From Salinispira sp. (lineage in GTDB: Bacteria > Spirochaetota > Spirochaetia > DSM-27196 > Salinispiraceae), in contig CBDDDG010000021.1 of assembly GCA_965226555.1 (NCBI GenBank), forward strand, positions 160,001 to 224,000: 64,000 nt of DNA. Direction: 5' to 3'. Numbering within the stretch: the stretch's first letter is position 1; each line of letters opens with the position of its first letter. Positions 23,184 to 47,965 of the stretch are shown piece after piece. Under the pieces are notes generated by a model that was not told the DNA's origin, did not search any database, and saw only the letters and a list, made by a program, of their open reading frames with translations. Both the position numbers and the translations under genes were made by a program.

Positions 23184-24788
23184 TTAGAACCGCCTGTCAC
23201 TTAGTTCCCTGTAGGCATCGGTGCCTTGTAAGGCTTCGTTTTCCTGTATGAGATCCCATGCGGTGGTTCCGTTTTCATCCTGTGCATGAACATCAGCGCC
23301 GGCATTCAGGAGTGTGGTAATAATTTCGGGGTTTTGGTTATATCTGGCAGCCAACAATAGGGCTGTCCATCCGAGGTTATTCCGCGCATGAACATCAGCC
23401 CCGGCATTGATGAGGGTGGTAATGATATTAGGTTTTTGGGTATTACTGGCAACCATCATCAGGGGAGTCCATCCGAGGTTATTCTGCGCATGAACATCAG
23501 CGCCGGCATTGATGAGGATGGTAATGACATCGGGATTTTGGTTATTACGGGCAGCCCACATCAGGGGAGTCCATCCGTCTTTAGTCCGCGCATGAATATC
23601 AGCTCCGGCATTGATGAGGATGGTAATGACATTGGGGTTTTTATTATTTTTGGTAGCCACCATCAGGGAAGTCCATTCGTATTCAGTCCGCGCATGAATA
23701 TCAGCGCCGGCATTGATGAGGGCGGTAATGACATCGGGGTTTTCGTTATATTCGGCAGCCCGCATCAGGGGAGTCCATCTGAATTTATTCCGCGCATTAG
23801 CATCAGCTCCCGCATCTAGCAGGGCGGTAATAATTTTGGGGTTTTGGTTATATCTGGCAGCCGCCATCAGGGGAGTTCCGTATTCATTCCGCTCATTAGC
23901 ATCAGCTCCCGCATCTAGCAGGTCGGTAATAATTTTGGGGTTTTGGTTATTACGGGCAGCCACCATCAGGGCTGTCCATCCGTATTCAGTCCGCGCATGA
24001 ATATCAGCTCCAGCATTGATGAGGGTGGTAATGACATCGGGGTTTTGGTTATATCTGGCAGCCGCCATCAGGGGAGTTCCGTATTCATTCCGCGCATTAG
24101 CATCAGCTCCCGCATCTAGCAGGGCGGTAATAATTTCGGGGTTTTGGTTATATCTGGCAGCCACCATCAGGGCTGTCCATCCGTTTTCAGTCCGCGCATG
24201 AATATCAGCTCCAGCATTGATGAGGGCGGTAATGACATCGGGGTTTTGGTTATATCTGGCAGCCCGCATCAGGGAAGTCCTTCCGTCTTCGGTCTGCGCA
24301 TGAATATCAGCGTCAGCATTGATGAGGGCGGTAATGACATCGGGGTTTTGGTTATTACGGGCAGCCAGCATCAGGGATGTCCATCCGTCTTTAGTCCGCG
24401 CATGAATATCAGTTCCAGCATTGAAGAGGGCGGTAATGACATCAGGGTTTTGGTTATATCTGGCAGCCACCATCAGGGCTGTCCATCCGTTTTCAATTTG
24501 CGCATGAACATCAGCTCCTGCATTGAATAGGGCGGTAATGATATTAGGGTTTTGGTTATTACTGGCAGCCAACATCAGAGGAGTCCATCCGCGGTTATTC
24601 CGCGCATGAACATCAGCCCCGGCATTTATGAGGGCTGTAATAATTTCGGGGTTTTGGTTATATCTGGCAGCCCGCATCAGGGGAGTCCTTCTGTCTTCAT
24701 CCTTCGCATATACATCTATGCTTCCTGCGCTCAGTGCCTGCCGTACTTCTTTAGGCGATATGTTTATCCAGTCTTTGGCATCCCACAT
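23184..24788 (-). CDS. Ankyrin repeat protein A1 (~14 repeats); signal-peptide leader out of frame
   Basis: 34-aa GWTPLMxAAxxNQNPDVITALINAGAD repeats and C-cap TAWDLIQENEALQGTDAYRELSDRRF. The leader ORF 24952-24788 ends in a TGATG overlap. Confidence 0.9.
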   Translation of the reverse strand: MWDAKDWINISPKEVRQALSAGSIDVYAKDEDRRTPLMRAARYNQNPEIITALINAGADVHARNNRGWTPLMLAASNNQNPNIITALFNAGADVHAQIENGWTALMVAARYNQNPDVITALFNAGTDIHARTKDGWTSLMLAARNNQNPDVITALINADADIHAQTEDGRTSLMRAARYNQNPDVITALINAGADIHARTENGWTALMVAARYNQNPEIITALLDAGADANARNEYGTPLMAAARYNQNPDVITTLINAGADIHARTEYGWTALMVAARNNQNPKIITDLLDAGADANERNEYGTPLMAAARYNQNPKIITALLDAGADANARNKFRWTPLMRAAEYNENPDVITALINAGADIHARTEYEWTSLMVATKNNKNPNVITILINAGADIHARTKDGWTPLMWAARNNQNPDVITILINAGADVHAQNNLGWTPLMMVASNTQKPNIITTLINAGADVHARNNLGWTALLLAARYNQNPEIITTLLNAGADVHAQDENGTTAWDLIQENEALQGTDAYRELSDRRF

Positions 24789-24952
24789 CAGGGAGTACTT
24801 CCGTATTCGGTCTGTGCATGAATATCAGCGCCGGCATTCAGCGGGGCGGTAATGACATCGGGGTTTTGGTTATAAACGGCAGTGTGCATACGGGCAGTGT
24901 AGCCGATACACAGCAGTATCGTCAATATCATTGAAAAATTGTATGTTTTCAT
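24788..24952 (-). pseudogene. Detached 5' leader (signal peptide + partial ankyrin repeat) of A1
   Basis: MKTYNFSMILTILLCIG...AVYNQNPDVITAPLNAGADIHAQTEYGSTP*. ACTCCCTGATG is one C short of the consensus ACTCCCCTGATG. Confidence 0.7.
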
Positions 24953-25022
24953 AATGACCTTTGTTATATGTTGATGGTCAATTATATATGATGTCGCGGG
25001 ATGCATCTATAGTGCCGCTTTT

Positions 25023-26829
25023 TTAGAACCGCCTTTTGTTGAGTTCCCTGTAGGCATCGGTTCCTTGTAAGGATTCGTTTTCCTGTATGAGAGCCCATGC
25101 GGTGGTTCCGTTTTCATCTTGTGCATGAACATCAGCCCCGGCATTGATGAGGGCGGTGATAATTTCAGGATTTTCATTATATCTGGCAGCAAACAACAAG
25201 GGAGTCCATTTGTATTCATTCCGCGCATTAGCATCAGCTCCCGCATTCAAGAGAGTGGTGATGATTTCAAGGTTGCTGTTAAAACCAGCAGCCGCCATCA
25301 GGGGAGTCCATCCGCGGTTATTCTGCGCATGAACATCAGCGCCGGCAGTGATGAGGGTGGTAATGACATCAGGGTTTTTATTATTTTTGGCAGCCACCAT
25401 CAGGGGAGTCCATCCGCGGTTATTCTGCGCATGAACATCAGCGCCGGCATTGATGAGGATGGTAATGACATCAGGGTTTTTATTATTTTTGGCAGCCATC
25501 ATCAGGGAAGTCCATTCGTATTCAGTCTGCGCATGAATATCAGCGCATTAGCATTGATGAGGGCGGTAATGACATCGGGGTTTTGGTTATATCTGGCAGC
25601 CGCCATCAGGGGAGTTCCGTATTCATTCCGCACATTAGCATTAGCTCCCGCATTGATGAGGGCGGTAATAATTTCGGGGTTTTGGCTAGGGCAGCCACCA
25701 TCAGGGGTCCATCCGTTTTCAGTCCGACATCAGGGCATTGATGAGGGTGGTAATGACATCGTTCAGGGGGTTATCTGGTCAGGGAGCCGCCATCCGTTTT
25801 CAGTCCGCACATGAATATCAGCTCACGGGCAGCCATCATCATGGCTGTCCATCCGTTTTCAGTCCGCGCATGAATATCAGCTCCAGCATTAATGAGGGCG
25901 GTAATGACATCGGGGTTTTGGTTATATCTGGCAGCCGCCATCAGGGGAGTTCCGTATTCATTCCGCCATTAGCATCAGCTCCCGCATCTAGCAGGGCGGT
26001 AATAATTTCGGGGTTTTGGTTATATCTGGCAGCCGCCATCAGGGGAGTCCATCCGTTTTCGGTCCGCGCATGAATATCAGCTCCAGCATTGATGAGGGTG
26101 GTAATGACATCGGGGTTTTGGTTATATTTGGCAGCCCGCATCAGGGCTGTCCATCCGTCTTTAGTCCGCGCATGAATATCAGCGTCAGCATTGATGAGGG
26201 CGGTAATGACATCGGGGTTTTGGTTATTACGGGCAGCCAGCATCAGGGATGTCCATCCGTCTTTAGTCCGCTCATGAATATCAGCTCCCGCATCTAGCAG
26301 GACAGTAATAATTTCGGGGTTTTGGTTATATCTGACAGCCCACATCAGGGGAGTCCATCTGTTTTTATCCCGTCCGTTAACATCAGTGCCGGCATTGATA
26401 AGGGTGGTAATGACATCGGGGTTTTGATTATTACTGGCAGCCACCATCAGGGCTGTCCATTCCGTTATTCAGTCTGCGCATAAATATCAGCTCCGGCATT
26501 TATGAGGGCTGTAATAATTTCGGAGTTTTGGTTATATTTGGCAGCCCGCATTAGGGAAGTCCTTCCGTCTTCATCCTTCGCATATACATCTATGCTTCCT
26601 GCGCTCAGTGCCTGCCGTACTTCTTTAGGCGATATGTTTACCCAGTATTCTTTGGCATCCCACATCAGAGAGTACTTCCGTATTCGGTCTGCGCATGAAT
26701 ATCAGCGTCAGCATTGATGAGGGCGGTAATGACATCGGGGTTTTGGTTATAAACGGCAGCGTGCATACGGGCAGTGTAGCCGATACACAGCAGTATCGTC
26801 AATATCATTGAAAAATTGTATGTTTTCAT
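25023..26829 (-). pseudogene. Ankyrin repeat gene A2, a frameshifted tandem paralog of A1
   Basis: Same leader, N-cap and upstream DNA as A1. Broken at ~26665, at ~26460 and repeatedly in 25540-25990. The C-cap is intact (ELNKRRF). Confidence 0.8.
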
Positions 26830-26907: not shown

Positions 26908-27699
26908 TTAGAATCGCCCTTGGCTGAGTTCCCTGTAGGCATCGGTTTCCTCTACGGCTTCGTTTTCCTGTATGAAATCCCATGCGGTGTTTCCGTATTC
27001 ATCTTGCGCATGAACATCGGCGCCGGCATTGATGAGGGTGGTGATAATTTCGGAATTTTCGTTATACCAAGCAGCCAGCATCAGGGCTGTCAATCCATCT
27101 CCAATCCGCGCATGAACATCAGCATCGGCATTCAGGAGGGCGGTGATAATTTCGGGGTTTTGGTTATATCTGGCAGCCCGCATCAGGGGAGTCCATCCGT
27201 TTTCATCCGGTATGTTAACATCAGCCCCGGCATTCAGAAGGGCTGTGATAATTTCGGGATTTTCGTTATATCTGGCAGCCACCATCAGGGAGGTCAATCC
27301 GCCTCCGGTCTGCGCATGAACATCGGCGCCCGCATTCAGCAGAGTGGTAATAATTTCAGGATTTTCGTTATTAAAGGCAGCCGTCATCAGGGCTGTCCAT
27401 TTGTATTCACCCTGCGCATTACCATCAGCGCCGGCCTTCAGCAGGGCGGTAATGGCAGCGGGGTTTTGGTTAATGGCGGCAGCCCATATCAGGGCAGTGT
27501 TTCCGTATTCATCCTCCGCATATGTATTTATGCTTCCTGCGCTCAGTGCCTGCTGTACTTCTTCAGGCGATATGTTTATCCAGTACTCTTTGGCAGCCCA
27601 TTCCTGCTCAGATGCGGAATTGCCTGCCGTTGTCATGCATGAGCTTAGTACGACCACTGTTAGCAGCAGCGCTGAAATGTACGGGTTGATGTTTGCCAT
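26908..27699 (-). CDS. Ankyrin repeat lipoprotein A3 (~5 repeats)
   Basis: SD AGGAGG, MANINPYISALLLTVVVLSSC lipobox, ankyrin repeats, C-cap ELSQGRF. Confidence 0.9.
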   Translation of the reverse strand: MANINPYISALLLTVVVLSSCMTTAGNSASEQEWAAKEYWINISPEEVQQALSAGSINTYAEDEYGNTALIWAAAINQNPAAITALLKAGADGNAQGEYKWTALMTAAFNNENPEIITTLLNAGADVHAQTGGGLTSLMVAARYNENPEIITALLNAGADVNIPDENGWTPLMRAARYNQNPEIITALLNADADVHARIGDGLTALMLAAWYNENSEIITTLINAGADVHAQDEYGNTAWDFIQENEAVEETDAYRELSQGRF

Positions 27700-28373: not shown

Positions 28374-30494
28374 TTAGGGCTTTTCTCCAACATTCACCTC
28401 CACAGTTGTCATTGTGTCGTTGCCGAGAATGTCTACCACCTTCACAGCGATCTTACGCCGCCCGGGACTCACCTCGCGTGCCGCGCTTTTCAGTTCCAGC
28501 GAACGATCCTTCCGTGTGCGGAAGCTCTGCCACTCGTTCTCGAAAATATAATTGCCCGTCCACTCCTCGCTGGTCTCACCGATTTCCGAATTTTTCACGC
28601 GGATAATTTCCCGCTTATTTTCGAAGTCGAAGTCAACGCTCCAGTAGTCTATCCAATCTGTCCAGCTCTGGGTTAGTATTTCGCGCTGCACAATTCCCTT
28701 TTTGTCTTTACTCAGCCGTATAACCTGCCCATTTTTCACCACGATTTTGCTGCCTTCCTTCTTCGTTTTGCTCAGCGCATCTTCTGCTTTGATGATGCTG
28801 TCCTGCGAGTAGTAGACCGAGAAATCTGTCAACTCCACTGCCACCGTTGGCGGCGTGCTTTTCTTGCCCGCGCGTACATGCGGTTTTACCTCAATGTAGC
28901 TCACATCGTGAAAAACCACGTGGTTCTTTTCTACCGCCCGTTTGTCGAAGACCTCCGCGGGAATGTATTTCGGCGCAATGTTAATGCCCGTGGACAGAGC
29001 CTCGTTCAGCGAGTTGGGGAAGAGCCCCATTTCGAACTCGAAGCCGAGGATGTCTACCGCGCTCATGTGTTTTTTGCGGCATTCGCGGATGATCTCCTCC
29101 ACAAAGAGCCTCGTTACCGGTAGGTTCACCGGTCCTATCGCCACAAGCCGCCCTGCTCGCGTGCCGTGGAAGCTCTCGAACTGCGTTACCTTTTCCGCTC
29201 CGTAGGCCTTCAGAATGAGGTCGAGGAAGGCAGCCTCCTTCTGCGCCAGTTGCTGCAGCTGTTCCTCCTCGCGCAGGTTAGGATTAATGCCCACAAAATG
29301 CTGGCGCTCGTATTTGCCGAGGTTGAGAATTTCAAAGGCGCGGTAATTTTGCCCCTGCTCTTTACGCTGCCGCTGCACAGCGATCATCCGTTTGCGCGTG
29401 CTGTGAATGGCGAACTTGCCCAGATCCGCGCACATCCATTTGCGCCCCAACTGTTCCGCTACTGCCGCCGTTGTGCCCGAGCCGCAGAAGAAGTCGGCGA
29501 CAAGATCGCCTTCGTTGCTGGATGCTTTAATAATGCGTTCGAGCAGGGCTTCGGGTTTTTGGGTGGGGTAGCCGATTCGTTCATCGGCTAATGGGTTTAT
29601 TATTGGAATATCCCAAACATCATCTACCGGTGTTCCACGTGGATTAGGCTCATATTTTGTTCCTGATGCGCCAACTATTCCACCCCTAGCGTAACCACTG
29701 GTTTCTTTATAGGGAACCCGAACAGCGTCAATATTGAAGATACATTTCTCTGCTTTCCGATACCAGAAGAGGTTGTCGTGCTTCTTTGAGAAATAGTGTG
29801 TTGATCGTCCGCCGCCGGTATAGTGCCAAGCTATTTCATTGAGATGGTTTCCTTGTCCAAAAATCTCATCTAAGCACAGTCGAACTACGGAGTTTACGCG
29901 CCAATCGCAATGCACATAAATACTCCCATCCTCGGCTAACAAGTCCCGCATGAGAATGAGGCGTTCGTAGATCATGGCGATGAAGGAATCGGCGCCCTTG
30001 CCCCAGGTGTCGCGGTAGGCAATTTCCTCAATAATGCTGGGTTTTTTGGTAAAGGTGTCGCCGCCGATCTCAATATTCATGGAGAAATCCGCTCCCACAT
30101 CGAAGGGCGGGTCAATGTAAATGAGTTTCAGCCCGCCCTGTGCCTCAATATCATCGCGCAGCGGCCCGTTCTTGAGGGCTGACAGGATCAGCTTGTTGTC
30201 GCCCCAGATCAGCTTGTTTGTCCAGCCCTTGATCTGCCGTCCCCGCTCATCGGTCGAGAATAACTCCATCTGCTGTGATGTATCATACGGCTTCTCCGCC
30301 CGCGGCTCGTCCACCTGCTCAATGGTCTGGAAGGGCAGCGTAATGTTGCAGACCTCAGTGGTTTTCCCGTTCCAGACAAGTTCGACCTCGCGCGTGTCTT
30401 CGAACAGCAGAAATCGGTACTTCTCCGGCAGCGCCTTGCCCGCCTCAATGCAACGCTCAATTTCCTGTTTTTCCTGTTCAGTCAGTTTCAGCAT
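28374..30494 (-). CDS. Second Type III-like DNA methyltransferase (Mod), orphan
   Basis: Motifs [30 protein letters not shown] and terminal [19 protein letters not shown]. No res gene downstream. Confidence 0.9.
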
Positions 30495-30505
30495 GTATTG
30501 CTTTA

Positions 30506-36805: not shown

Positions 36806-37093
36806 TTATAAAATTATAAAGGCGTCAATCGTGTGCACATTTACCTCTGACATTTGAGAATTGTATTCACAGCACGATGCAACTCGCTGATACGCTATCT
36901 TACCATGTTTTGCCAAGTATTCACAGGCGGTATTTATATCGGTGGTTTCGCATAAGCGGATCAAGTTCAGCGCGACAATGTCCTGAGCATCGTAATTCTC
37001 AGCGAAATTCTCCTTACATGCGCGATACACTTCCCGAGCTCGTTTCAGGCAACGCTGCGCGCTTTGAATTTTTTGAATAAGAGTTTCATTCAT
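36806..37093 (-). pseudogene. Truncated HepT (HEPN/DUF86) toxin
   Basis: N-terminus K..S..RC..R.RE.Y...YDAQD...LNL.R.CE is HepT-like. The RxxxxH RNase motif is absent. ATGA-coupled to mntA. Confidence 0.7.
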
Positions 37094-38425: not shown

Positions 38426-41077
38426 TTATTGCTCGGTAGGTACCAGTTCCCGGTAGGCATCGGTCCCCTCTAAGGCTTCGTTTTCCTGTGCGAAATCCCA
38501 TGCGGTTTTTCCGTCTTCATTCTGCGCGTTAACATCGACGTCAGCGTTCAGCAGGGCGATAATGACATCGGGATTCTGGCTATTACGGGCAGCGGCCATC
38601 AGGGCTGTCTCTCCGTTTTTATTCTGCGCATTAATGTCAGCGCCGGCGTTCAGCAGGATGGTAATAATCTCGGGATTTTCGTTACGCCCGGAAGCCGCCA
38701 TCAGGGGAGTCCATCCGTCTTCATCCCGTACATTAACATTGGCGCCGGTGTTCAGGATGGTGGTAATAATTTCAGGGTTTTCGTTATTATCGGCAGCCAA
38801 CATCAGGGGAGTTGCTCCGCTTTCAGTCCGCGCATGAATATCAGCGCCGGCGTTCAGAAGGGTGGTAATGACATCGGGATTTTGGTTACTACGGGCAGCA
38901 AACATCAGGGGGGTGTTTCCCTTTACCGTCCACTCATGAATATCAGCGCCGGCGTTCAGCAGGGTGGTAATGACATCGGGATTGTGGTTATTAGCAGCAG
39001 CCAGCATCAGGGGGGTCGATCCGCTTTCAGTCCGCGCGTTAATATCGGCATTGGCATCAGCCCCGGCATTCAGAAGGGTGGTAATGATATCGGGGTTGTG
39101 GTTATTACGGGCAGCAAACATCAGGGGAATCTGTCCGTTTTCATCCTGCGCATGAATATCAGCCCCGGCATTGATGAGGGCGGTAATGACATCGGGGTTG
39201 TGGTTATTACGGGCAGCAAACATCAGAGCTGTTACTCCGTCTTCAGCCTGCGCGTTAATATCGACATTAGCATCAGCATCAGCCCCGGCATTCAGCAGGG
39301 TGGTAATGACATCGGGGTTGTGGTTATTACCGGCAGCAAACATCAGGGGAGTCTGTCCGTTTTCATTGTGCGCATGAATATCAGCCCCGGCGTTCAGCAG
39401 GGTGGTAATGACATCGGGATTTTGGTTATTACGGGCAGCAAACATCAGAGCTGTTACTCCGTCTTCGGCCTGCGCGTTAATATCGACATTGGCATCAGCA
39501 ATATCGGCATTGGCATTGGCGCGAGCATTCAGTAGGGTGGTAATGACATCGGGCTCTTGGTTGTTACGGGCAGCAAACATCAGGGGAGTCCGTCCGTCTT
39601 CGGTCTGCGCATTAATATCAGCTCCGGCATTCAGCAGAGTGGTAATGAGATCGGGGCTCTGGTTATTACCGGCAGCAAACATTAGGGCTGTTATTCCGTC
39701 TGAATTCCGCGCGTTAACATCGGCATCGGCGCCTGCGTTCAGCAGGGTGGTAATGACATCGGGGTTTTTATTGTTCCCTGCGGCAAACATCAGGGCTGTC
39801 ATTCCGTCTGAATTCTGCGCGTTAACATCAGCTCCGGCATTGATGAGGGTGATGATGATTTCACTGTTGCTGTTATATCTGGCAGCCCGCATCAGGGCTG
39901 TCGCTCCGTCTTCGGCCTGTGAGTTAATATCGGCATTGGCGCCTGCGTCCAACAGGGCGGTAATGAGATCGGGGCTTTGGTTATTACCGGCAGCCAATAT
40001 CAGGGCTGTCGCTCCGTATTCATTCTGCGCGTTAATATCGGCATTGGCATCAGCACCGGCATTGATGAGGGTTGTGATGATTTCAAGATTGCCGTTATAC
40101 CTCCTGACAGCCCACATTAGGGGAGTCCAACCGTCTTCATCCCGTACATTGGCATCGGCGCCGGCGTTCAGCAGGGCTGTGATGACTTCAAGGTTGCTGT
40201 TATTGCGGGCAGCCCACATCAGGGGAGTCCATCCGTTTTCATCCTGCGCGTTACTATCGACATTGGCATCGGCGCCGGCGTTCAGCAGGGTGATAATGAC
40301 ATCGGGGTTCTGGTTATTATGGGCAGCCCACATCAGGGGAGTCCATCCGTTTTCATCCTGCGCGTTAATATCAGCATTGGCATCGGCTCCGGCGCTCAGC
40401 AGGGCGGTAATAATTTCGGAATTCTCGTTATATCCGGCAGCTTCCATTAGGGCTGTCCTTCTGCGGTTATTCTGCGCATTAACATCAGCTCCGGCATTGA
40501 TGAGGGCGGTAATGACATCGGGATTTTGGTTATTACCGGCAGCCCACATCAGGGGAGTCAATCCGTCTTTGTTCTGCGCGTTAATATCGGCATTGGCATC
40601 AGTATCGGCATTGGCATTGATGAGGATGGTGATGATTTCACGGCTGCTGTTAAAACCGGCAGCCACCATCAGGGGAGTCGATCCGTCTTCAGTCCGCGCA
40701 TGAATATCCGCGCCGGCATTGATGAGGGTGGTGATGATTGCACGGTTACTGTTAAAACCGGCAGCCCACATCAGGGGCGTCCCGCTGTCTTTGTTCTGCG
40801 CATTAACATCGGCTCCGGCATCGATGAGGGCTGTGATGACATCGGGGTTTCCGTTATTGCCGGCAGCCAACATCAGGGGAGTCAATCCGTCTTCATTCTG
40901 CGCGTGAGGATCTATGGTTCCTGCGTTCAGAGCATTCTGCAGATCTTCATACGACAGATTGACCCAGTTTTCCTGTTCTATCCATTCCTGTGTGGAGATG
41001 AGATTGTCCTGCGCTGAGAGGAGACTGCTGATACACAGCAGTGTCGTCAATAGTATTAAAAAATTGCGTATTTTCAT
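38426..41077 (-). CDS. Secreted ankyrin repeat protein A6 (~22 repeats)
   Basis: Signal peptide MKIRNFLILLTTLLCISSLLSAQ, many repeats with ADANAD loop insertions, C-cap ELVPTEQ. Confidence 0.92.
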   Translation of the reverse strand: MKIRNFLILLTTLLCISSLLSAQDNLISTQEWIEQENWVNLSYEDLQNALNAGTIDPHAQNEDGLTPLMLAAGNNGNPDVITALIDAGADVNAQNKDSGTPLMWAAGFNSNRAIITTLINAGADIHARTEDGSTPLMVAAGFNSSREIITILINANADTDANADINAQNKDGLTPLMWAAGNNQNPDVITALINAGADVNAQNNRRRTALMEAAGYNENSEIITALLSAGADANADINAQDENGWTPLMWAAHNNQNPDVIITLLNAGADANVDSNAQDENGWTPLMWAARNNSNLEVITALLNAGADANVRDEDGWTPLMWAVRRYNGNLEIITTLINAGADANADINAQNEYGATALILAAGNNQSPDLITALLDAGANADINSQAEDGATALMRAARYNSNSEIIITLINAGADVNAQNSDGMTALMFAAGNNKNPDVITTLLNAGADADVNARNSDGITALMFAAGNNQSPDLITTLLNAGADINAQTEDGRTPLMFAARNNQEPDVITTLLNARANANADIADANVDINAQAEDGVTALMFAARNNQNPDVITTLLNAGADIHAHNENGQTPLMFAAGNNHNPDVITTLLNAGADADANVDINAQAEDGVTALMFAARNNHNPDVITALINAGADIHAQDENGQIPLMFAARNNHNPDIITTLLNAGADANADINARTESGSTPLMLAAANNHNPDVITTLLNAGADIHEWTVKGNTPLMFAARSNQNPDVITTLLNAGADIHARTESGATPLMLAADNNENPEIITTILNTGANVNVRDEDGWTPLMAASGRNENPEIITILLNAGADINAQNKNGETALMAAARNSQNPDVIIALLNADVDVNAQNEDGKTAWDFAQENEALEGTDAYRELVPTEQ

Positions 41078-41670
41078 AACCGCCTTCTGTTGAGTTCCCA
41101 GTAGGCATCGGTTCCCTGTAAGGCATCATTTTCCTGTATGAGATCCCATGCGGTTTTTCTGGGGTAGAGGGTTCCCATGGTAACATTAGCGCCTGCGTTC
41201 AGCAGGGTGGTAATAATTTCGGGATTTTCGTTGTATCCGGCAGCTTCCATCAGGGCTGTCCATCTGCGCTTATTCTGCGCATTAATATCAGCGCCGGCAT
41301 TGATGAGGGCGGTAATGACATTGGGATTTTGGTTATTACGGGCAGCAAACATCAGGGGAGTTGATCCGTTTTCATCCCGCGCATTAATATCAGCGCCGAC
41401 GTTGATGAGGACGGTAATGACATCGGGGTTTTGGTTATTGCCGGCAGCAAACATCAGGGGAGTTCTTCCGTATTTATCCCGCGTATTAATATCAATTCCT
41501 GCGCTCAGAGCATTCTGCGCATCTTCATACGACAGATTGACCCAATTTTCCGATTCCGTCCATCCCTGCGCGGAGAGAATACTGTCCTGCGCGGAGAGAA
41601 GACTGCCGATGCGCAGCAGCAACATCAATAGTATTAAAAAATTGTGGGTGAATCCACCGTGTATTTTCAT
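41074..41670 (-). CDS. Secreted ankyrin repeat protein A7 (~3 repeats)
   Basis: Signal peptide ...NFLILLMLLLRIGSLLSAQ. The 3' part is nearly identical to the 3' part of A8. Confidence 0.85.
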   Translation of the reverse strand: MKIHGGFTHNFLILLMLLLRIGSLLSAQDSILSAQGWTESENWVNLSYEDAQNALSAGIDINTRDKYGRTPLMFAAGNNQNPDVITVLINVGADINARDENGSTPLMFAARNNQNPNVITALINAGADINAQNKRRWTALMEAAGYNENPEIITTLLNAGANVTMGTLYPRKTAWDLIQENDALQGTDAYWELNRRRL

Positions 41671-41674
41671 ATGT

Positions 41675-44092
41675 TCAAAACCGCCTTTGGTTGAGTTCCC
41701 AGTAAGCATCGGTTCTCTTTAAGGCATCATTTTCCTGTATGAGATCCCATGCGGTTTTTCTGGGGTAGAGGGTTCCCATGGTAACATTAGCGCCGGCGTT
41801 CAGCAGGGTGGTAATAATTTCAGGATTTTCGTTATATCCGGCAGTAAACATCAGGGAAGTCCATCTGCGCTTATTCTGCGCATTAATATCAGCGCCTGCA
41901 TTGATGAGGGCGGTAACGACATTGGGATTTTGGTTATTACGGGCGGCAGCCATCAGGGGAGTCGATCCGCTTTCATCCCGCGCATTAATATCAGCGCCGA
42001 CATTGATGAGGGTGGTAACGACATTAGGGTTTTGGTTATTGCCGGCAGCAAACATCAGGGGAGTTTCTCCGTATTCGGTCCGCGCATAAATGTCAGCTCC
42101 GGCATTGATGAGGGTGGTAATGACATCAAGGTTTTGGTTATTACGGGCAGCAGCCATCAGAGCCGTTCTTCCATCTCCCGTCTGCGCGTGAATATCAGCT
42201 CCGGCATTCAGAAGGACTGTGATGATGTCAGGATTTTGGTTATTACGGGCAGCCACCATCAGGGGAGTCCATCCGCCTCCCGTCCGCGCATGAATGTCAG
42301 CCCCGGCATTCAGGAGGGCTGTGATGATTTCACGGTTTCTGTTATACCCGGCAGCCCACATCAGGGGGGTCAATCCGTATTCGGTGTGCGCATTAATATC
42401 AGCGCCTGCATTCAGGAGAACTGTGATGACTTCCGGGTTTTGGTTATTACCGGCAGCCCACATCAGGATGGTATCTTCGTATTCATCCTGTACGTTAACC
42501 TCAGCATTCAGCAGGGCGGTAATGACATCGGGATTTTGGTTATTGCCGGTATTGAAGGCAGCCCTCATCAGGGGAGTTTCTCTGCTTTCAGTGCGCCCAT
42601 TAACATCATCAGCGCCGGCATTGATGAGGGTGGTGATGATTTCACGGTTGCTGTTATTGAAGGCAGCCAGCATCAGGGGAGTTTCTCCGTATTCAGTCTG
42701 CGCATTAACATCGGCGCCGACATTGATGAGGGCTGTGATGATTTCACGGTTGCCGTTGTTGTAGGCAGCCAGCATCAGAGGAGTTTCTCCGTCTTCGGTC
42801 TGTGTATGAATATCAGCATCGGCATTCAGCAGGGTGGTGATAATTTCGGGATTTGCATTATATTCGGCAGCCCACATCAGGGGAGTTTTTCCGTCTTTAT
42901 TCTGCGCATTAACCTCAGCCCCCGCATTCAGCAGGGCGGTAATGACATCGGGGTTTTGGTTATTGCCAGCAGCCAGCATCAGGGGAGTTCTTCCGTTTCC
43001 CGTCCGCGCGTTAACATCGGCATTGACTCCGGCATTCAGCAGGGTGGTAATGACATCGGGGTTTTGGTTATTTTCGGCAGCCGCCATCAGGGGAGTCCAT
43101 CCGTTTACGTCCCGCGCGTTAACATCAGCATTGGCATCGGCGTTCAGCAGGGTGGTAATGACATCGGGGTTTTGGTTATTACCGGCAGCCAGCATCAGGG
43201 CTGTCCATCCGTTTACATTCTGCGCGTTAACATCGGCGCCGGCCTTCAGCAGGGTGGTGATGACATCGGGGTTTTGCTTATTACGGGCAGCAACCATCAG
43301 GGCTGTCCATCCGTTTACATTCTGCGCGTTAACATCGGCGCCGGCCTTCAGCAGGGCGGTGATGATATCGGGGTTTTGCTTATTGTCGGAGGCAATCATC
43401 AGGGCTGTCCATCCGTTTACATCCTGCGCGTTAACATCGGCGCCGGCATTCAGCAGGTCGGTGATGATTTCACGGTTGTCGTAATACTTAACAGCCCACA
43501 TCAGGATGGTTTCTCCGTATTCAGTCTGCGCGTTAATGTCGGCTCTGGCATTGATGAGGGCGGCGATGACATCGGGGTTTTGGTTATTACGGGCAGCAAG
43601 CAACAGGGGAGTCCATCCGTCTTCATCCCGCGCGTTAACATCGGCGCCGGACTTCAGGATGGCGGTGATAATTTCGGGATTTCTGTTATATCCGGCAGCA
43701 AACATCAGGGGAGTGAATCCGTCTTTAGCCTGCGCATGAATGTCAGCATCGGCATTGATGAGAGTGGTAATGACATCAGGATTCTGGTTATTAAAGGCAG
43801 CAAACATGAGGGCTGTTCCTCCGTCCTCAGTGCGCGCAGTAACATCGGCTCCGGCATTAATGAGGGTGGTAATGACATTGGGGTTTTGCTTATGCCAAGC
43901 AGCCGCCATTAGGATGGTTTCTCCGTATGCGTTCTGCTCATTAGGTTCCAAGGTTCCTGCGCTCAGGGTATTCTGCAGATCTTCATACGACAGATTGACC
44001 CAACGTTCCGGATATGCCCAGTCCTGCGCGGGGAGGAGTCTGCCGATGCACAGCAACACCATCAATATCATTAAAAAAGTGTGGGTTTTCAT
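41675..44092 (-). CDS. Secreted ankyrin repeat protein A8 (~21 repeats)
   Basis: Signal peptide MKTHTFLMILMVLLCIGRLLPAQ, C-cap ELNQRRF. Confidence 0.92.
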   Translation of the reverse strand: MKTHTFLMILMVLLCIGRLLPAQDWAYPERWVNLSYEDLQNTLSAGTLEPNEQNAYGETILMAAAWHKQNPNVITTLINAGADVTARTEDGGTALMFAAFNNQNPDVITTLINADADIHAQAKDGFTPLMFAAGYNRNPEIITAILKSGADVNARDEDGWTPLLLAARNNQNPDVIAALINARADINAQTEYGETILMWAVKYYDNREIITDLLNAGADVNAQDVNGWTALMIASDNKQNPDIITALLKAGADVNAQNVNGWTALMVAARNKQNPDVITTLLKAGADVNAQNVNGWTALMLAAGNNQNPDVITTLLNADANADVNARDVNGWTPLMAAAENNQNPDVITTLLNAGVNADVNARTGNGRTPLMLAAGNNQNPDVITALLNAGAEVNAQNKDGKTPLMWAAEYNANPEIITTLLNADADIHTQTEDGETPLMLAAYNNGNREIITALINVGADVNAQTEYGETPLMLAAFNNSNREIITTLINAGADDVNGRTESRETPLMRAAFNTGNNQNPDVITALLNAEVNVQDEYEDTILMWAAGNNQNPEVITVLLNAGADINAHTEYGLTPLMWAAGYNRNREIITALLNAGADIHARTGGGWTPLMVAARNNQNPDIITVLLNAGADIHAQTGDGRTALMAAARNNQNLDVITTLINAGADIYARTEYGETPLMFAAGNNQNPNVVTTLINVGADINARDESGSTPLMAAARNNQNPNVVTALINAGADINAQNKRRWTSLMFTAGYNENPEIITTLLNAGANVTMGTLYPRKTAWDLIQENDALKRTDAYWELNQRRF

Positions 44093-44341
44093 AATGGGCA
44101 AGTGTATATGAAAGTTTTGTAAAATGCAACTCTTTCTAAGAGGTCATCACTTTTTTCAATAAATTACTGAAATTCTCTGAATCTTCTGGCCCCGGAGATT
44201 TTAAAATCTCTGAAATAAGAAAACGATGTAAAAAATATTTAAGAATCTTATTTTTTTGCTGTTCTGAAAGGAATGAATTGATCTTGCTTCGATTTAACGG
44301 ACACTCTTCTAAGCACGATACTATAGGGAGAGGAGAGTGTT

Positions 44342-44632
44342 ATGGAAACACGGAAAGTCAGAAAATTCTATGCTGAGGATTTTAAGGAACAGGCTGTGGA
44401 GCTTGCCAAAGAAATTGGCACGAAGCAGGCGACGGAAAAGCTGGGTATAGCAAGTTATCATACCCTCGCGAAATGGGTTCGGAACGACCAGAAAGGTCCC
44501 GAGTTTCGGGAACTTCAGGAAGCCCTGGCCGAGAACAAACGATTGAGAAAGGAACTGCGCGCCGAGAAAAAGGCGGTGGCAATACTCAATGATGCAATGG
44601 TTTTTTTTTGCAGAAAGGAGAGCCTGAAATGA
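44342..44632 (+). CDS. IS3 transposase OrfA (HTH + leucine zipper)
   Basis: RKFYAEDFKEQAV...TLAKWV...ENKRLRKEL. Confidence 0.9.
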   Translation: METRKVRKFYAEDFKEQAVELAKEIGTKQATEKLGIASYHTLAKWVRNDQKGPEFRELQEALAENKRLRKELRAEKKAVAILNDAMVFFCRKESLK

Positions 44633-45513
44633 AGTATCGAGGAATTGAGCAGCTGAAGCAGACCGGACATGCTGTTGCACCATGCTGCAAACTTCTGAAG
44701 GTGTCCAGCTCGGGATTCTATGACTGGCTTAAGAGAGAACCGTCCAAAAACACCCGCAGGGATGATGAGCTTACGGGTAAAATCCTGCGTGTGTATACTG
44801 AAAATAAGGGATGCTACGGTTCGCCCCGAATTCACCGGCTGCTGCATCTTCATGGTGAAGCAATCGGGAGGAACCGAGTCGCCCGGCTTATGAGGGAATC
44901 GGGGCTCAATGCGGGGAGAACGAAGGCATATCGCCCGCGAACAACAATGAGCAATCCATCCCAGAAGAAGTCTCCGCGGGTGTTTCGCATTGAAAGCTCC
45001 ACGGTTACGAAAGCGAATGAGGTCTGGGCATCGGACCTCACGTACCTGCCCGCCGGCGCAGGATTTGCGTACCTTGTTGTGGTTCTGGACATCTATACCC
45101 GGGAAATTACGGGCTGGAATGTCAGTGATTCCATGGAGAGCACACAGACGGAAAAGGCTCTGTTACAGGCCGTACGGAGAACTCCCGGGGAGTTGAATAG
45201 CTTGGTCTTTCATTCAGATCAGGGAACGCAGTATTGCGCGCAGAGCATTCGAGACAAACTGGAAATGTTACATATTACCCAGTCGATGTCGAGAAGGGGG
45301 AATTGCTACGATAATGCCTTTGTGGAAAGTTTTTTCCACACGCTGAAGAATGAGCTTGGTAAGCCGAGGTTTCAGAACCTTCAGGAGGCGCGGAAGATAG
45401 TTTTTGAATACATCAACTGGTATAACCGAGAGAGGCTTCATTCTTCTCTTGACTATATGAGTCCGATGAATTATGCTTTGAAAACAGCAGGAGAATCCTG
45501 TTGTGTTGCTTAG
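44629..45513 (+). CDS. IS3 transposase OrfB (rve/DDE integrase core)
   Basis: Motifs YGSPRI, WASDLTY, FHSDQGTQY, GNCYDNAFVESFFHTLKNE and YNRERLHSSL. In the -1 frame relative to orfA. Confidence 0.95.
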   Translation: MKYRGIEQLKQTGHAVAPCCKLLKVSSSGFYDWLKREPSKNTRRDDELTGKILRVYTENKGCYGSPRIHRLLHLHGEAIGRNRVARLMRESGLNAGRTKAYRPRTTMSNPSQKKSPRVFRIESSTVTKANEVWASDLTYLPAGAGFAYLVVVLDIYTREITGWNVSDSMESTQTEKALLQAVRRTPGELNSLVFHSDQGTQYCAQSIRDKLEMLHITQSMSRRGNCYDNAFVESFFHTLKNELGKPRFQNLQEARKIVFEYINWYNRERLHSSLDYMSPMNYALKTAGESCCVA

Positions 45514-45869
45514 CGGATTGTCCGAATTTTCGAAGCAAGATCAGTGGTGATAATTTCGGGATTTTTGTTATTACTGGTAGCCTCCATCAGGGGAGTCCAT
45601 CCGTATTCATCCCGCGCGTTAACATCAGCTCCGGCATTGATGAGGGCGGTAATGACATCGGGGTTTTGGTTATAAACGGCAGCAAACATCAGGGGAGTTT
45701 CTCCGTATTCACCCCTCGCATGTACATCTATGGTTCCTGCAATCAGATCATTCTGCAGATATTCATACGACAGATTTTCCCAGTATTCCTCGCTAGCCCA
45801 GTCCTGCGCAGGGAGGAGACTGCCGATGCACAGTAGCATCAATATCATTGAAAAATTGTGAGTTTTCAT
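45510..45869 (-). pseudogene. Ankyrin gene A9 truncated by IS3
   Basis: Signal peptide, N-cap and ~1.7 repeats, then the frame runs into the IS end at 45543 (EIITT|DLASKIRTIR*). Confidence 0.9.
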
Positions 45870-45877: not shown

Positions 45878-45906
45878 AGTGTATATGAAAGTTTTGCAAA
45901 ATGCAA
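45878..45906 (-). promoter_or_regulatory. Putative promoter shared by ankyrin genes A8/A9/A10 (TTGCAT-17-TACACT, TTTTGCAAAA palindrome in spacer)
   Basis: Near-identical blocks at 44101-44129, 45878-45906 and 47974-48002, each ending 8 nt before the ATG. Confidence 0.5.
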
Positions 45907-45970
45907 CGGTTTCTATATGATGTCGCAGGAATAAAGTATTTACCGTTGGATACAATATACCTCCGATTTT

Positions 45971-47965
45971 TTAGAACCGCCTGTCACTTAGTTCCCAGTA
46001 GGCATCGGTTCCCTCTAAGTCCTCGTTTTCCTGTATGAGGTCCCATGCGGTTTTTCCATTTTTGGCCCGTAGGTTAGCATCAGCACCGCCGTTCAGCAGG
46101 GCGATAATAATGACATCGGAATTTTCATTATATCTGGCAGCCCACACAGCCCATATCAGGGGAGTCCTACCGTATTCATCCCGCGCATTAACATCAGCCC
46201 CTGCATTAAGCAGGGTGGTAATGACATCGGGGTTTTTATTATATTCGGCAGCATTCATTAGGGCTGTCATTCCGTCTTCATCCCGTGCATGAATATCGGC
46301 GCCAGCATTGATGAGGGCTGTGATGACATCGGGATTTTGGTTACTGCCGGCAGCCCGCATCAGGGGAGTCCTTCCGAATTTATCCCGCGCGTTAACATCA
46401 GCTCCGGCATTGATGAGGGCTGTGATGACATCGGGATTTTGGTTACTGCCGGCAGCCCGCATCAGGGGAGTCCTTCCGAATTTATCCCGCGCGTTAACAT
46501 CAGCTCCGGCATTGATGAGGGCGGTGATGACATCGGGATTTTCGTTAACGGCAGCCTGCATCAGGGGAGTCCTTCCGAATTTATCCCGCGCATGAACATC
46601 AGCTCCGGCATTGATGAGGGCGGTAATGACATCGGAGTTTTCGTTCCAAAGGGCAGCCCACATCAGGGGAGTTTCTCCGTATTTATTCTGCGCATGAATA
46701 TCAGCCCCTGCATTGATGAGGCCGGTGATAATTTCGGGGTTTTCGTTCCAACGGACAGCCCGCATCAGGGGAGTCCATCCGTCTTCATCCCGTACGTTAA
46801 CATCAGCGCCAGCATTGATGAGGGCTGTGATGACATCGGGGTTTTCGTTATATTTGGCAGCCAGCAACAAGGGAGTTTCTCCGTCTTTATCCCGCGCGTT
46901 AACATCAGCTCCGGCATTGATGAGGGCGGTAATGACATCGGGGTTTTCGTTATATTTGGCAGCCAGCAACAAGGGAGTTTCTCCGTCTTTATCCCGTACG
47001 TTAACATCAGCTCCGGCATTGATGAGGTCGGTAATGACATCGGAGTTTTCGTTCCAAAGGGCAGCCCGCATCAGGGGAGTCCATCCGTATTTATTCTGCG
47101 CATGAATATCAGCCCCTGCATTGATGAGGCCGGTGATAATTTCGGGATTTTGGTTACTGCCGGCAGCCCGCATCAGGGGAGTCCATCCGTCTTCATCCTG
47201 CGCATTAACATCGGCGCCAGCATTGATGAGGGTGGTAATAATTTCAGGATTTTCGTTATACCGGGTAGCCAACAACAAGGGAGTCCGTCCGTCTTCATCC
47301 CGCGCGTTAACATCAGCTCCGGCATTGATGAGGGCGGTAATAACATTCGAGTTTTGGTTCCAAGCGGCAGCCAGCAACAAGGGAGTCCGTCCGTATTTAT
47401 TCTGCGCGTTAACATCAGCTCCGGCATTGATGAGGGTGGTAATGACATCGAGGTTTTCGTTATATTCGGCGGCCCACATCAGGAGAACCTCTCCGTATTC
47501 ATCTTGTTGATTAACATCAGCCCAGGCATTGATGAGGGCGGTAATGACATCAGGGTTTTCGTTATATCTGGCAACCAACATCAGGATGGTTTCTCCGTTT
47601 TCAGTCTGTACATGAATATCAGCCCCTGCATTCAGCAGGGTAGTAATAACATCGGGGTTTTGGTTATTTTCGGCAGCCAACATCAGGAGAGTCCATCCGT
47701 CTTCAGTCCGCGCATGAATATCCGATCCGGCATTGATGAGGGCGGTAATGACATCGGGGTTTTGGTTAAAGAAGGCAGCAAACATCAGGGGAGTGTTTCC
47801 GTATTTACCCCTCGCATGTACATCTATGGTTCCTGCAATCAGATCATTCTGCAGATCTTCATACGACAGATTTTCCCAGTATTCCTCGGTAGCCCATTCC
47901 TGCGCGGGGAGGAGACTGCCGATACACAGCAGCATCAATATCATTAAAAAATTGTGGGTTTTCAT
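45971..47965 (-). CDS. Secreted ankyrin repeat protein A10 (~17 repeats)
   Basis: Signal peptide MKTHNFLMILMLLCIGSLLPAQ, adjacent near-identical 102-bp units, C-cap ELSDRRF. Confidence 0.92.
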   Translation of the reverse strand: MKTHNFLMILMLLCIGSLLPAQEWATEEYWENLSYEDLQNDLIAGTIDVHARGKYGNTPLMFAAFFNQNPDVITALINAGSDIHARTEDGWTLLMLAAENNQNPDVITTLLNAGADIHVQTENGETILMLVARYNENPDVITALINAWADVNQQDEYGEVLLMWAAEYNENLDVITTLINAGADVNAQNKYGRTPLLLAAAWNQNSNVITALINAGADVNARDEDGRTPLLLATRYNENPEIITTLINAGADVNAQDEDGWTPLMRAAGSNQNPEIITGLINAGADIHAQNKYGWTPLMRAALWNENSDVITDLINAGADVNVRDKDGETPLLLAAKYNENPDVITALINAGADVNARDKDGETPLLLAAKYNENPDVITALINAGADVNVRDEDGWTPLMRAVRWNENPEIITGLINAGADIHAQNKYGETPLMWAALWNENSDVITALINAGADVHARDKFGRTPLMQAAVNENPDVITALINAGADVNARDKFGRTPLMRAAGSNQNPDVITALINAGADVNARDKFGRTPLMRAAGSNQNPDVITALINAGADIHARDEDGMTALMNAAEYNKNPDVITTLLNAGADVNARDEYGRTPLIWAVWAARYNENSDVIIIALLNGGADANLRAKNGKTAWDLIQENEDLEGTDAYWELSDRRF

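What the first reader, a model, noticed from the sequence alone, without database searches (positions are those of the whole stretch)
23184..47965. Ten-gene array of exported ankyrin proteins built like a natural DARPin library
Seen: ten co-oriented genes share one grammar. Each has a Sec or lipoprotein signal, an N-cap (W..EYW.N.S.E..Q..L.AG.ID), about 3 to 22 near-identical 102-bp repeats, and, where intact, a C-cap (TAWD..QENE.L.GTDAY.EL). Framework residues are almost constant. Variation concentrates in the hairpin (QDEN/RTEY/RNNL/RDKF) and the first helix (M[R/W/F/V/A/E]A[A/V][R/G/F/E/W][Y/N/F]). Established: these positions form the ankyrin target-binding surface, and ankyrin expansions are common in symbionts of eukaryotes. 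Inference: this is a recombination-diversified repertoire of secreted binders for host interaction, with high DNA identity between units allowing repeat shuffling.
Basis: partly seen in the sequence, partly recalled or inferred. Interest (0 to 1): 0.8.

Follow-up and report, generated by a model that had tools for sequence, protein, structure and literature searches.

The report
Shuffling array of exported ankyrin binders
An uncultured spirochaete carries a cluster of ten genes for ankyrin-repeat proteins, eight with predicted export signals, whose repeat units show signs of swapping short pieces and vary most at the surface that ankyrins normally bind with, so they likely form a self-diversifying set of binders for host or neighbouring-microbe molecules.

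Summary
The array is real but less tidy than described. Ten minus-strand ankyrin genes lie at 23184-47965 and fill 59% of the span; unrelated genes fill the rest. Seven are intact with export signals, one is cut by an IS3, and two lack an in-frame signal; one of these two has many frameshifts, some likely assembly errors. Repeats are 34 residues and about 74% identical as DNA, not near-identical. Variation peaks at the positions randomised in designed ankyrin libraries (omega 2.9 versus 0.37 on a fixed tree, but about 1 in close pairs). Linkage decays within a few codons, and the caps are mosaic, pointing to short-tract recombination between units and genes. The signal-cap-repeat-cap grammar is not special to this genome: the C-cap profile finds 2,032 protein clusters elsewhere, and related loci mostly hold one gene. 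The expansion is lineage-specific (0 of 7 same-family genomes match). Host targeting is inferred only; a periplasmic inhibitor role is the main rival. This scan earlier noted a similar recombining secreted-ankyrin array in another genome (e1-2649655). Verdict: new variant of a known kind, interest 0.5.

The parts
45971..47965 (-). A1: Sec-type signal, N-cap, 17 repeats, C-cap (664 aa), intact
45544..45869 (-). A2: Sec-type signal, N-cap, about 2 repeats, cut off by the IS3; N-cap 98% identical to that of A1
44279..45543 (+). IS3-family element with terminal inverted repeats and no visible target duplication; the rest of A2 is absent
   Evidence: (NF033516 above cut-off)
41675..44092 (-). A3: Sec-type signal, N-cap, 21 repeats, C-cap (805 aa), intact
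41074..41670 (-). A4: signal, N-cap, 3 repeats, C-cap (198 aa); C-cap 94% identical to that of A3, N-cap closest to A5 (83%); stop overlaps the start of A5; 88% identical to P0078 of a 'Salinispira sp.' MAG
38426..41077 (-). A5: Sec-type signal, N-cap, 22 repeats, several with short in-frame linker duplications, C-cap (883 aa)
37591..38268 (-). A6: Sec-type signal, N-cap, 4 repeats, C-cap closest to that of A5 (86%) (225 aa)
36806..37572 (-). Interrupting genes: MntA-family nucleotidyltransferase antitoxin (above cut-off) and a short HepT-like ORF matching only profile positions 1-57 of 120
32896..36777 (-). Interrupting gene: large FlgD-Ig/OmpA envelope protein (weakly Lsa66-like, below cut-off)
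31163..32737 (-). A7: lipoprotein-type signal, N-cap, 12 repeats, C-cap (524 aa), intact
28374..31117 (-). Interrupting genes: 203-aa lipoprotein-like ORF without a family match, and a 735-aa N6/N4 DNA methyltransferase
26908..27699 (-). A8: lipoprotein-type signal, N-cap, 5 repeats, C-cap (263 aa), intact
25023..26829 (-). A9: broken as assembled; rearranged leader out of frame; 12 frame-breaking indels, with 8 indel events in 25689-25824; colinear with A10 in blocks of 76-99% identity
23184..24952 (-). A10: rearranged leader (24952-24789) out of frame; open frame 23184-24788 with A8-like N-cap (93%), 14 repeats and C-cap, no signal in frame

Best explanation
This is a lineage-specific expansion of a widespread family of capped ankyrin proteins with predicted export signals, in which repeat units likely exchange short DNA tracts while the scaffold stays conserved, so that the genes likely encode a changing set of binding surfaces aimed at host or other outside molecules. 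Steps: (1) Shown: ten genes here and two elsewhere share signal, N-cap, 34-residue repeats and C-cap. (2) Predicted: they fold like designed ankyrin binders, with the variable positions on the usual hairpin and helix-1 face. (3) Inferred from statistics: tandem duplication sets repeat number, and recombination or gene conversion in tracts of a few codons mixes hairpin and helix segments within and between genes and swaps caps. (4) Inferred: selection keeps the framework and favours new residues on the face. (5) Inferred: Sec export puts the proteins in the periplasm, lipidation anchors A7 and A8, and a type II secretion-like apparatus or surface lipoprotein display would carry some outside. 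(6) Untested: the targets are host proteins, as for signal-peptide ankyrins of sponge phages.
For: Architecture and fold: pLDDT 87 for A4; 9 of the top 10 structural matches are designed ankyrin or engineered chains with target-normalised TM 0.83-0.85. Face variability: five of the six positions randomised in the ANK-N5C library (PMC4308713, passages) are among the eight most variable here. Codon model: omega 2.90 on the face versus 0.37 on the framework; twice the log-likelihood gain over omega=1 is 31.9. First/second-position diversity on the face is 0.54, against 0.28 at fourfold framework sites (p=0.001). A4 versus P0078: 7 of 18 face positions differ versus 4 of 84 others (p=0.0004). 112 distinct six-residue faces among 120 units. 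Recombination: association between sites falls from 0.054 at 1-2 codons to zero beyond 10 (permutation p=0.0005, also for third positions), whereas 20 clonal simulations are flat at 0.027. Nearest neighbour lies in another gene for 66 of 120 units. Mosaic caps: B2 signal 98% and C-cap 91% like B1 but N-cap only 62%. Lineage specificity: 65 matches in G000 versus 1-9 weak ones in each of 7 same-family genomes; the last-repeat-plus-C-cap query hits 0 of 7 of them and 32 of 98 other genomes of the order. Lifestyle hints: 108 ORFs with DUF285 repeats versus 0-2 matches in relatives; gspD/E/F/G-like cluster; MAGs classed in Salinispira are described as sponge symbionts (PMC11656744, passages). Precedent: signal-peptide ANKp reduces macrophage uptake (10.1101/608950, passages).
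Against: In close, disjoint unit pairs the face pN/pS is only 0.95-0.99 by its own synonymous sites (1.1-1.3 against all-site pS). The codon test uses six columns on a tree that recombination invalidates, and I fixed the face set after seeing the entropies. With strictly synonymous framework sites the decay is seen (0.053 versus 0.003) but is not significant (p=0.07, 13 sites). The same positions vary in unrelated homologues. The family also occurs outside obvious symbionts, and some members are fused to peptidoglycan-binding, SH3 or TonB-C domains, which points to the periplasm. Only GspG passes its equivalog cut-off, so the cluster could be pilus-like. Rickettsia RARP-1, once thought secreted, proved periplasmic (10.1101/2022.02.23.481736, passages). 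Three of ten loci are broken as assembled. No host, expression, localisation or target was observed.
Confidence: 0.5

Rival explanations
1. The proteins stay in the periplasm as a diversifying set of inhibitors or decoys that bind foreign or own envelope-attacking enzymes (host hydrolases, competitor toxins, phage lysins, own peptidoglycan hydrolases), working like Bdellovibrio Bd3460. The shuffling mechanism is the same as in the main reading; only compartment and target differ.
For: A Sec signal alone delivers to the periplasm (own knowledge). Characterised Sec-exported bacterial ankyrins are periplasmic: Bd3460 inhibits two endopeptidases (PMC4686830, abstract and passages); RARP-1 and AnkB. 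Among 43 family members scanned, one carries a peptidoglycan-binding domain, one SH3_3, one TonB-C and one a weak SLT_L match. No TolC-type channel was found in G000 (genome 93.5% complete). Ankyrin immunity proteins occur in polyimmunity loci (PMC3482391, passages).
Against: No conserved partner among 88 genes flanking homologues in the loci kept for that scan: no toxin-immunity pairing and no catalase, with one D,D-carboxypeptidase, one phospholipase C, one phospholipase D-like gene and one ParE. No hydrolase lies in the array. Proteins of 17-22 repeats are far longer than the 23-kDa Bd3460.
Confidence: 0.3
2. A largely neutral expansion: a genome prone to duplication and ectopic recombination (MutS2 missing) multiplies a folded but dispensable repeat protein, and the face varies only because it is unconstrained.
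For: Face pN/pS is about 1 in close pairs. Three of ten loci are broken. In-frame linker duplications occur in A3, A5, A6 and B1. A MutS2-like match is found in 7 of 7 same-family genomes but not in G000, while MutS and MutL are present. H. pylori MutS2 is described as a recombination inhibitor (PMC4739419, search listing only). The variability profile is generic.
Against: Framework omega 0.37 shows the proteins are maintained. Face diversity is twice that of fourfold sites, and omega is 2.9. The orthologue comparison shows the same bias. About a third of residues at positions 6, 11, 14 and 15 are Trp, Tyr or Phe.
Confidence: 0.15
3. The array, or much of it, is an assembly artefact (collapsed or stacked strain variants of fewer genes).
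For: A9 has eight indel events in 135 bases. At three of its 12 breaks, all contig depth in the runs covering them carries the other form, and a fourth is mixed (table cut at 12 of 18 rows; the contigs may come from paralogous units). A9 and A10 are colinear, and some contigs there have about half the usual depth. The best runs hold 78% and 76% of the words of 23100-33000. Read support for A1-A6 was not obtained.
Against: Only two off-diagonal matches of 88% or more over 120 bases or more exist in the array. Seven long frames are open. Contigs of 1,196, 2,866 and 891 bases and a 1,089-base piece match unique DNA and gene ends with no differences. An independent MAG encodes an A4 counterpart.
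Confidence: 0.05

Closest known systems
Designed ankyrin repeat proteins (DARPins; ANK-N5C library, PMC4308713; PMC8683736)
   Same: N-cap, stack of consensus-like repeats and C-cap; variable residues at repeat positions 2, 3, 5, 10 and 13; top structural matches
   Different: Natural genes with export signals; 34-residue repeat with TPLM and an Asn-x-Asn-Pro linker instead of the 33-residue TPLH repeat; caps of a different sequence; up to 22 repeats; no target known
High-internal-conservation repeat domains of fungal NLRs such as the HNWD WD40 sensors (PMC13449251, passages)
   Same: Conserved repeats with a few hypervariable positions; repeat gain, loss and exchange between genes; closest match for the mode of evolution
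   Different: Those repeats are 80-100% identical versus about 75% here; here there is no NACHT/NB-ARC or effector domain, the proteins are exported and the host is a bacterium
Wolbachia ANK genes (PMC3563639, passages)
   Same: Symbiont ankyrin family evolving by intragenic recombination, repeat-number change and chimeric repeats
   Different: Here one capped subfamily in a tandem cluster with Sec or lipoprotein signals and exchange between paralogues
Signal-peptide ankyrins of Chromulinavorax destructans (98 proteins, 78% with a signal; PMC6561590, passages) and sponge Ankyphage ANKp (10.1101/608950, passages)
   Same: Ankyrin-only proteins with N-terminal signals, proposed (Chromulinavorax) or shown (ANKp) to act on eukaryotic cells
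   Different: Smaller family in a spirochaete; sequence membership in those families not tested; no comparison of caps
Bdellovibrio Bd3460 (PMC4686830), Pseudomonas AnkB and Rickettsia RARP-1
   Same: Sec-exported bacterial ankyrins
   Different: Bd3460 sits beside its target enzyme; here twelve diversified paralogues with no conserved neighbour

Membership tests
Ankyrin repeat proteins (PF00023/PF12796) | Ankyrin profile match and helix-turn-helix-hairpin stack | tested here: met
   (4 of 4 members scanned above cut-off)
DARPin-type scaffold | Dedicated N- and C-caps around self-compatible internal repeats | tested here: met
   (predicted model only)
DARPin-type scaffold | Variation focused on repeat positions 2, 3, 5, 10, 13 and 33 | tested here: met
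   five of six are among the eight most variable; the counterpart of position 33 is mostly Arg or Gln
DARPin-type scaffold | 33-residue repeat with TPLH motif | tested here: not met
   34 residues, Met in 105 of 120 units at the His position
DARPin-type scaffold | Specific binding of a target through that face | not testable with these tools
   no candidate partner, so no complex prediction was run
High-internal-conservation repeat sensors (fungal HNWD type) | Repeats 80-100% identical | tested here: not met
   mean 74.8% within genes; the paper's Psim measure was not computed
High-internal-conservation repeat sensors (fungal HNWD type) | Exchange of repeat sequence between genes | tested here: met
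High-internal-conservation repeat sensors (fungal HNWD type) | Diversifying selection at a few positions | tested here: inconclusive
   omega 2.9 and twofold excess diversity but about 1 in close pairs
High-internal-conservation repeat sensors (fungal HNWD type) | NACHT or NB-ARC ATPase and effector domain | tested here: not met
   proteins consist of signal, caps and repeats only
Host-modulating secreted ankyrins of symbionts and their phages (ANKp type) | N-terminal export signal, no transmembrane anchor | tested here: met
   8 of 10 loci, judged by eye; no signal predictor available
Host-modulating secreted ankyrins of symbionts and their phages (ANKp type) | Carrier lives in a eukaryotic host | tested here: inconclusive
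   indirect only: DUF285 expansion, name of the A4 counterpart, PMC11656744
Host-modulating secreted ankyrins of symbionts and their phages (ANKp type) | Effect on eukaryotic cells | not testable with these tools
   needs experiment
Type IV or type I secreted Ank effectors (Legionella, Orientia) | Family profile above cut-off and matching secretion route | tested here: not met
   NCBIfam T4SS Ank scores 18-71 bits against cut-offs 450-1400 for A4 and A8; no TolC-type OEP match; a type IV system itself was not searched
Periplasmic partner ankyrins (Bd3460, AnkB) and Imm-ank immunity proteins | Conserved adjacent cognate enzyme or toxin gene | tested here: not met
   (88 neighbours, no conserved partner)
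Periplasmic partner ankyrins (Bd3460, AnkB) and Imm-ank immunity proteins | Periplasmic location and enzyme inhibition | not testable with these tools
   needs experiment
Diversity-generating retroelement | Reverse transcriptase in the genome | tested here: not met
   PF00078: 0 matches in G000 (93.5% complete), control rang in 3 of 14

The most novel reading that the evidence does not exclude
The capped, exported 34-residue ankyrin module is an unrecognised bacterial variable-binder platform (at least 2,032 clusters at 50% identity carry its C-cap). In this spirochaete the array is actively reshuffled within living populations, so that each host or cell lineage carries a different repertoire of natural DARPins: a bacterial counterpart of recombination-built immune receptors. 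The damaged consensus and half-depth variant contigs at A9/A10 would then be the trace of coexisting alleles.
Probability: 0.2. Interest if true: 0.8.

Novelty: new variant of a known kind. Interest (0 to 1): 0.5.

Why it matters
What symbiont ankyrin proteins bind is a long-standing open question. Here a small, closed set of twelve paralogues has a constant scaffold, a readable six-residue face and natural minimal members (3-5 repeats), so targets can be sought by pull-down and face variants compared directly. It also shows sub-repeat shuffling of a DARPin-like scaffold in a bacterium and points to a large exported ankyrin family with its own conserved caps, which my searches did not find described. 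That family could be of use to protein engineers. It is not a new kind of system: recombining ankyrin families are known from Wolbachia, signal-peptide ankyrin expansions from Dependentiae, and this mode of repeat evolution from fungal NLRs.

Tried and rejected
No RNA holder listed. No Rfam match in the window. Promoter- and terminator-like sites in 36500-48300 at chance level (15 versus 16.1 and 14 versus 11.7). Placement attempts by a plasmid search with a MiaB-like protein and by related loci of the OmpA/FlgD protein gave only distant hits; the 16S gene's best full-length hit among plasmid records was a Treponema record at 80.8%, so the lineage rests mainly on the named A4 counterpart and is not a formal classification. 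A search with the A1 signal plus N-cap among proteins of 365-1,162 aa found nothing. Phage origin: 22 viral loci, best 43% identity, not supported. Diversity-generating retroelement rejected. Loss of mismatch repair rejected: MutS and MutL present. Joints were not used as evidence of rearrangement, because paralogues outside the laid stretch can produce them. Read support for A1-A6 could not be obtained and remains open. The partitioned codon model printed no omega and warned of too many parameters; values come from the separate fits. Pairs chosen by framework identity gave face pN 0.355 against framework pS 0.063, but this is biased by the choice and was not relied on. No complex prediction was run, for lack of a candidate partner. 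Literature: 'Salinispira + sponge + ankyrin' gave 0 papers; searches listed no paper that, by title and start of abstract, describes this capped family. The library lacks most subscription journals; Nguyen et al. 2014 and Reynolds and Thomas 2016 were seen only as references, so overlap with their sponge-symbiont proteins is untested. No supplements were read. PMC6387759 (passages) concerned another gene family and was not used.


Full report
Observation. The window is G000:C21:160001-224000 of a 2.98-Mb, 26-contig genome (93.5% complete, 6.7% contaminated). Ten ankyrin loci lie on the minus strand between 23184 and 47965, named A1 to A10 in the direction of transcription. Seven are intact with an export signal: A1 (17 repeats), A3 (21), A4 (3), A5 (22) and A6 (4) with Sec-type signals, A7 (12) and A8 (5) with lipoprotein-type signals. 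Signal types are judged by eye; no predictor was run. A2 has a signal but is cut after about two repeats by an IS3 element at 44279-45543 that shows no target duplication. A9 and A10 share a rearranged leader that is out of frame with the N-cap, and A9 has 12 frame-breaking indels. The loci cover 14,609 of 24,782 bases; between them lie the IS3, a MntA antitoxin with a short HepT-like ORF, a large OmpA/FlgD-Ig protein, an unassigned lipoprotein-like ORF and a DNA methyltransferase. A3, A4 and A5 are tightly joined (5-base gap; overlapping stop and start). Two more members, B1 and B2, lie on contigs C1 and C12, and a separate signal-less ankyrin family lies on C10, C24 and C25.

Artefact check. 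The array is not a stack of near-identical copies: only two off-diagonal matches of at least 88% over at least 120 bases exist. Short-read contigs of runs X1 and X2, which may be the source sample and so are not independent, match unique DNA and gene ends in 22,000-33,500 without differences (pieces of 1,196, 2,866, 891 and 1,089 bases). A9 is doubtful. Eight indel events fall in 135 bases. At three breaks, all contig depth in the runs covering them shows the other form, and a fourth is mixed; the table showed 12 of 18 rows, and contigs may come from paralogous units. Part of A9's damage is therefore likely assembly error, possibly from mixed alleles. Read support for A1-A6 could not be obtained. 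A protein from an independent MAG named 'Salinispira sp.' (P0078) is 88% identical to A4, so at least that gene exists in another assembly. Run X4, labelled cave metagenome, holds a relative at about 96-99% identity in unique genes.

Repeat units. I analysed 120 of the 122 repeats found in open frames (107 from the array, 13 from B1 and B2), dropping the truncated second unit of A2 and the interrupted second unit of B1; the frameshifted parts of A9 are not included. Units are 34 residues. DNA identity averages 74.8% within genes and 72.9% between genes, and 23 of 7,140 pairs reach 90%, so 'near-identical' is wrong. Entropy peaks at unit positions 6, 14, 11, 4, 15, 2, 17 and 3. Positions 3, 4, 6, 11 and 14 correspond to positions 2, 3, 5, 10 and 13, which are randomised in the ANK-N5C library and form its binding surface (PMC4308713, passages). 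That position 14 of the standard repeat (our 15) is randomised in the original DARPin design is recalled, not read. The AlphaFold model of A4 (pLDDT 87) has a cap helix pair, three repeats and a two-helix C-cap, and its best structural matches are designed ankyrins. There are 112 different six-residue faces among 120 units.

Recombination. The nearest neighbour of a unit is in another gene for 66 of 120 units. The unit tree needs 58 changes of gene label, against a minimum of 11 and 84 +/- 2.7 for shuffled labels, so both local duplication (for example A1 units 7-8 and 11-12, A5 units 14-17) and exchange between genes have acted. Within a unit, association between sites is 0.054 at 1-2 codons, 0.017 at 3-5, 0.007 at 6-10 and zero beyond (permutation p=0.0005, also with third positions only); 20 simulations without recombination are flat at 0.027. 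With 13 strictly synonymous framework sites the trend is the same but not significant (p=0.07), so co-variation of neighbouring residues may contribute. Caps are mosaic: B2 has a signal 98% and a C-cap 91% identical to those of B1 but an N-cap only 62% identical; A4 has A3's C-cap (94%) and an N-cap closest to A5's (83%); A10 joins an A2-like leader to an A8-like N-cap (93%). A9 and A10 are colinear in blocks alternating between 91-99% and 76-88% identity. No reverse transcriptase was found. MutS and MutL are present, but a MutS2-like match is missing from G000 and present in 7 of 7 same-family genomes. I tested this after an earlier scan note; its link to the shuffling is only a possibility.

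Selection. The framework is under purifying selection (pN/pS 0.32-0.41; omega 0.37). For the face the evidence is mixed. A codon model on the fixed tree gives omega 2.90, with twice the log-likelihood gain over omega=1 of 31.9. First- and second-position diversity is 0.54, against 0.28 at 15 fourfold framework sites (p=0.001). A4 and P0078 differ at 7 of 18 face positions and 4 of 84 others (p=0.0004). Against this, close disjoint pairs give face pN/pS of 0.95-0.99, the model rests on six columns and a tree that recombination invalidates, and the face set was fixed after I saw the entropies. The same positions also vary in 319 near-full units from unrelated homologues (Spearman 0.63).

Family context. 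The grammar is inherited, not invented here. Homologues with a signal, an N-cap, the same 34-residue repeat and a similar C-cap turn up among 2,090 protein hits and 80 metagenome loci. Named ones include Synergistaceae, Spirochaetia, Alphaproteobacteria and Thermus sp.. A 32-position C-cap profile finds 2,032 clusters at 50% identity with E up to 0.001; some carry several capped modules in one chain. Of 91 loci with repeats, 79 hold one such ORF, 10 hold two, one holds three and one eight (loci are often short). Among 88 flanking genes, taken from the loci left after 20 were set aside as generic, signal-less or fragmentary, no partner recurs apart from three phage-type integrases. Four of 43 scanned members carry a peptidoglycan-binding, SH3, TonB-C or weak SLT_L domain. 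In G000's own family the module was not found with the C-cap query (0 of 7), while 32 of 98 other genomes of the order match, mostly with one to three matches. The expansion is thus specific to this lineage.

Mechanism. The best reading (0.5) is a recombination-diversified repertoire of exported binders acting on host or other outside molecules. The genome looks host-associated: 108 ORFs carry DUF285 repeats, many as FN3 lipoproteins, and MAGs classed in Salinispira are described as sponge symbionts (PMC11656744, passages; the word ankyrin does not occur in its main text). A gspD/E/F/G-like cluster on C16 offers a route across the outer membrane, though only GspG passes its cut-off. Signal-peptide ANKp of sponge phages lowers macrophage uptake (10.1101/608950, passages). 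The main rival (0.3) keeps the proteins in the periplasm as inhibitors, like Bd3460 (PMC4686830, abstract and passages); RARP-1 shows that a Sec signal does not mean delivery to the host. A neutral expansion (0.15) and an artefact (0.05) are less likely. Host, location, expression and target are all unobserved.

Comparison and novelty. It is built like a DARPin but fails the 33-residue TPLH test. It evolves like the high-internal-conservation repeats of fungal NLRs (PMC13449251, passages) but lacks their ATPase and their 80-100% repeat identity. Recombination and repeat shuffling of ankyrin genes are documented in Wolbachia (PMC3563639, passages), and signal-peptide ankyrin expansions in Chromulinavorax (PMC6561590, passages). 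An unchecked note of this scan describes a similar recombining array of secreted ankyrin genes in another genome (e1-2649655). What I did not find described (searches; subscription journals are largely missing) is this capped 34-residue exported family, its expansion in a spirochaete, and exchange on a scale of a few codons. Verdict: new variant of a known kind, interest 0.5; the bold reading of live repertoire shuffling has probability 0.2 and would deserve 0.8.

Noticed in passing
window 18343-19950 (+) and 55216-57207 (-); genome-wide: FN3 plus DUF285 lipoprotein-like genes; 108 ORFs with such repeats (630 repeats, about 67,000 residues of open frame) in G000, against 0-2 matches in each of 7 relatives. 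A far larger expansion than the ankyrin array.
   Followed up: partly
window 26829-26670 and 24952-24789 (-): A9 and A10 leaders: an A2-like signal whose cleavage site and N-cap are replaced by a short stretch with a near-palindrome between short direct repeats, then part of a repeat joined to an A8-like N-cap. The cause of the scar is unexplained.
   Followed up: partly
G000:C16:47000-57200 (L123): Type II secretion or pilus-like cluster: secretin, GspE-like ATPase, GspF-like protein, GspG above cut-off.
   Followed up: partly
G000 whole genome: No MutS2-like match although 7 of 7 same-family genomes have one; MutS and MutL present.
   Followed up: yes
G000:C10:338341-340079, C24:19862-21310, C25:22540-24174: Second, signal-less ankyrin family; the C10 and C25 copies are nearly the same protein, with C10 split in two frames. 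Duplication or redundant assembly.
   Followed up: no
L101:8811-10256 (B1): Paralogue B1 has an acidic eight-residue repeat inserted inside its second ankyrin unit; it lies beside an FN3-DUF285 gene, and B2 lies between ORFs that resemble YhgA/Rpn-type genes by eye.
   Followed up: no
window 36806-37572 (-): Intact MntA antitoxin with a HepT-like partner that covers only about half of the profile, probably a decayed type VII toxin-antitoxin pair.
   Followed up: no
window 28374-30581 (-) and 467-5873 (+): A DNA methyltransferase without a neighbouring restriction subunit inside the array, and a methyltransferase plus ResIII pair at the window start.
   Followed up: no
window 16378-16872, 20086-20613, 53724-54779, 58236-59429: CCDC90-like coiled-coil gene built on 33-bp repeats, an 8xMP membrane protein, a YhgA-like gene and a Fic protein.
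   Followed up: no
window 59428-59614: AT-rich 70-bp tandem repeat, 2.7 copies at 92% identity, upstream of the Fic gene.
   Followed up: no
L070:2-2170, 9158-10444, 10555-11328: An unrelated organism carries three genes of the same capped, signal-bearing family within 12.5 kb, two in tandem, with their own homogenised framework.
   Followed up: partly
L097 (also L125, L126): A 150-kb contig also held in the viral collection carries eight clustered signal-less ankyrin ORFs with a shared N-terminal motif.
   Followed up: no
P0122, P0123, P0125, P0129: Family members that string three to seven capped modules into one chain, like engineered multi-domain DARPins.
   Followed up: no
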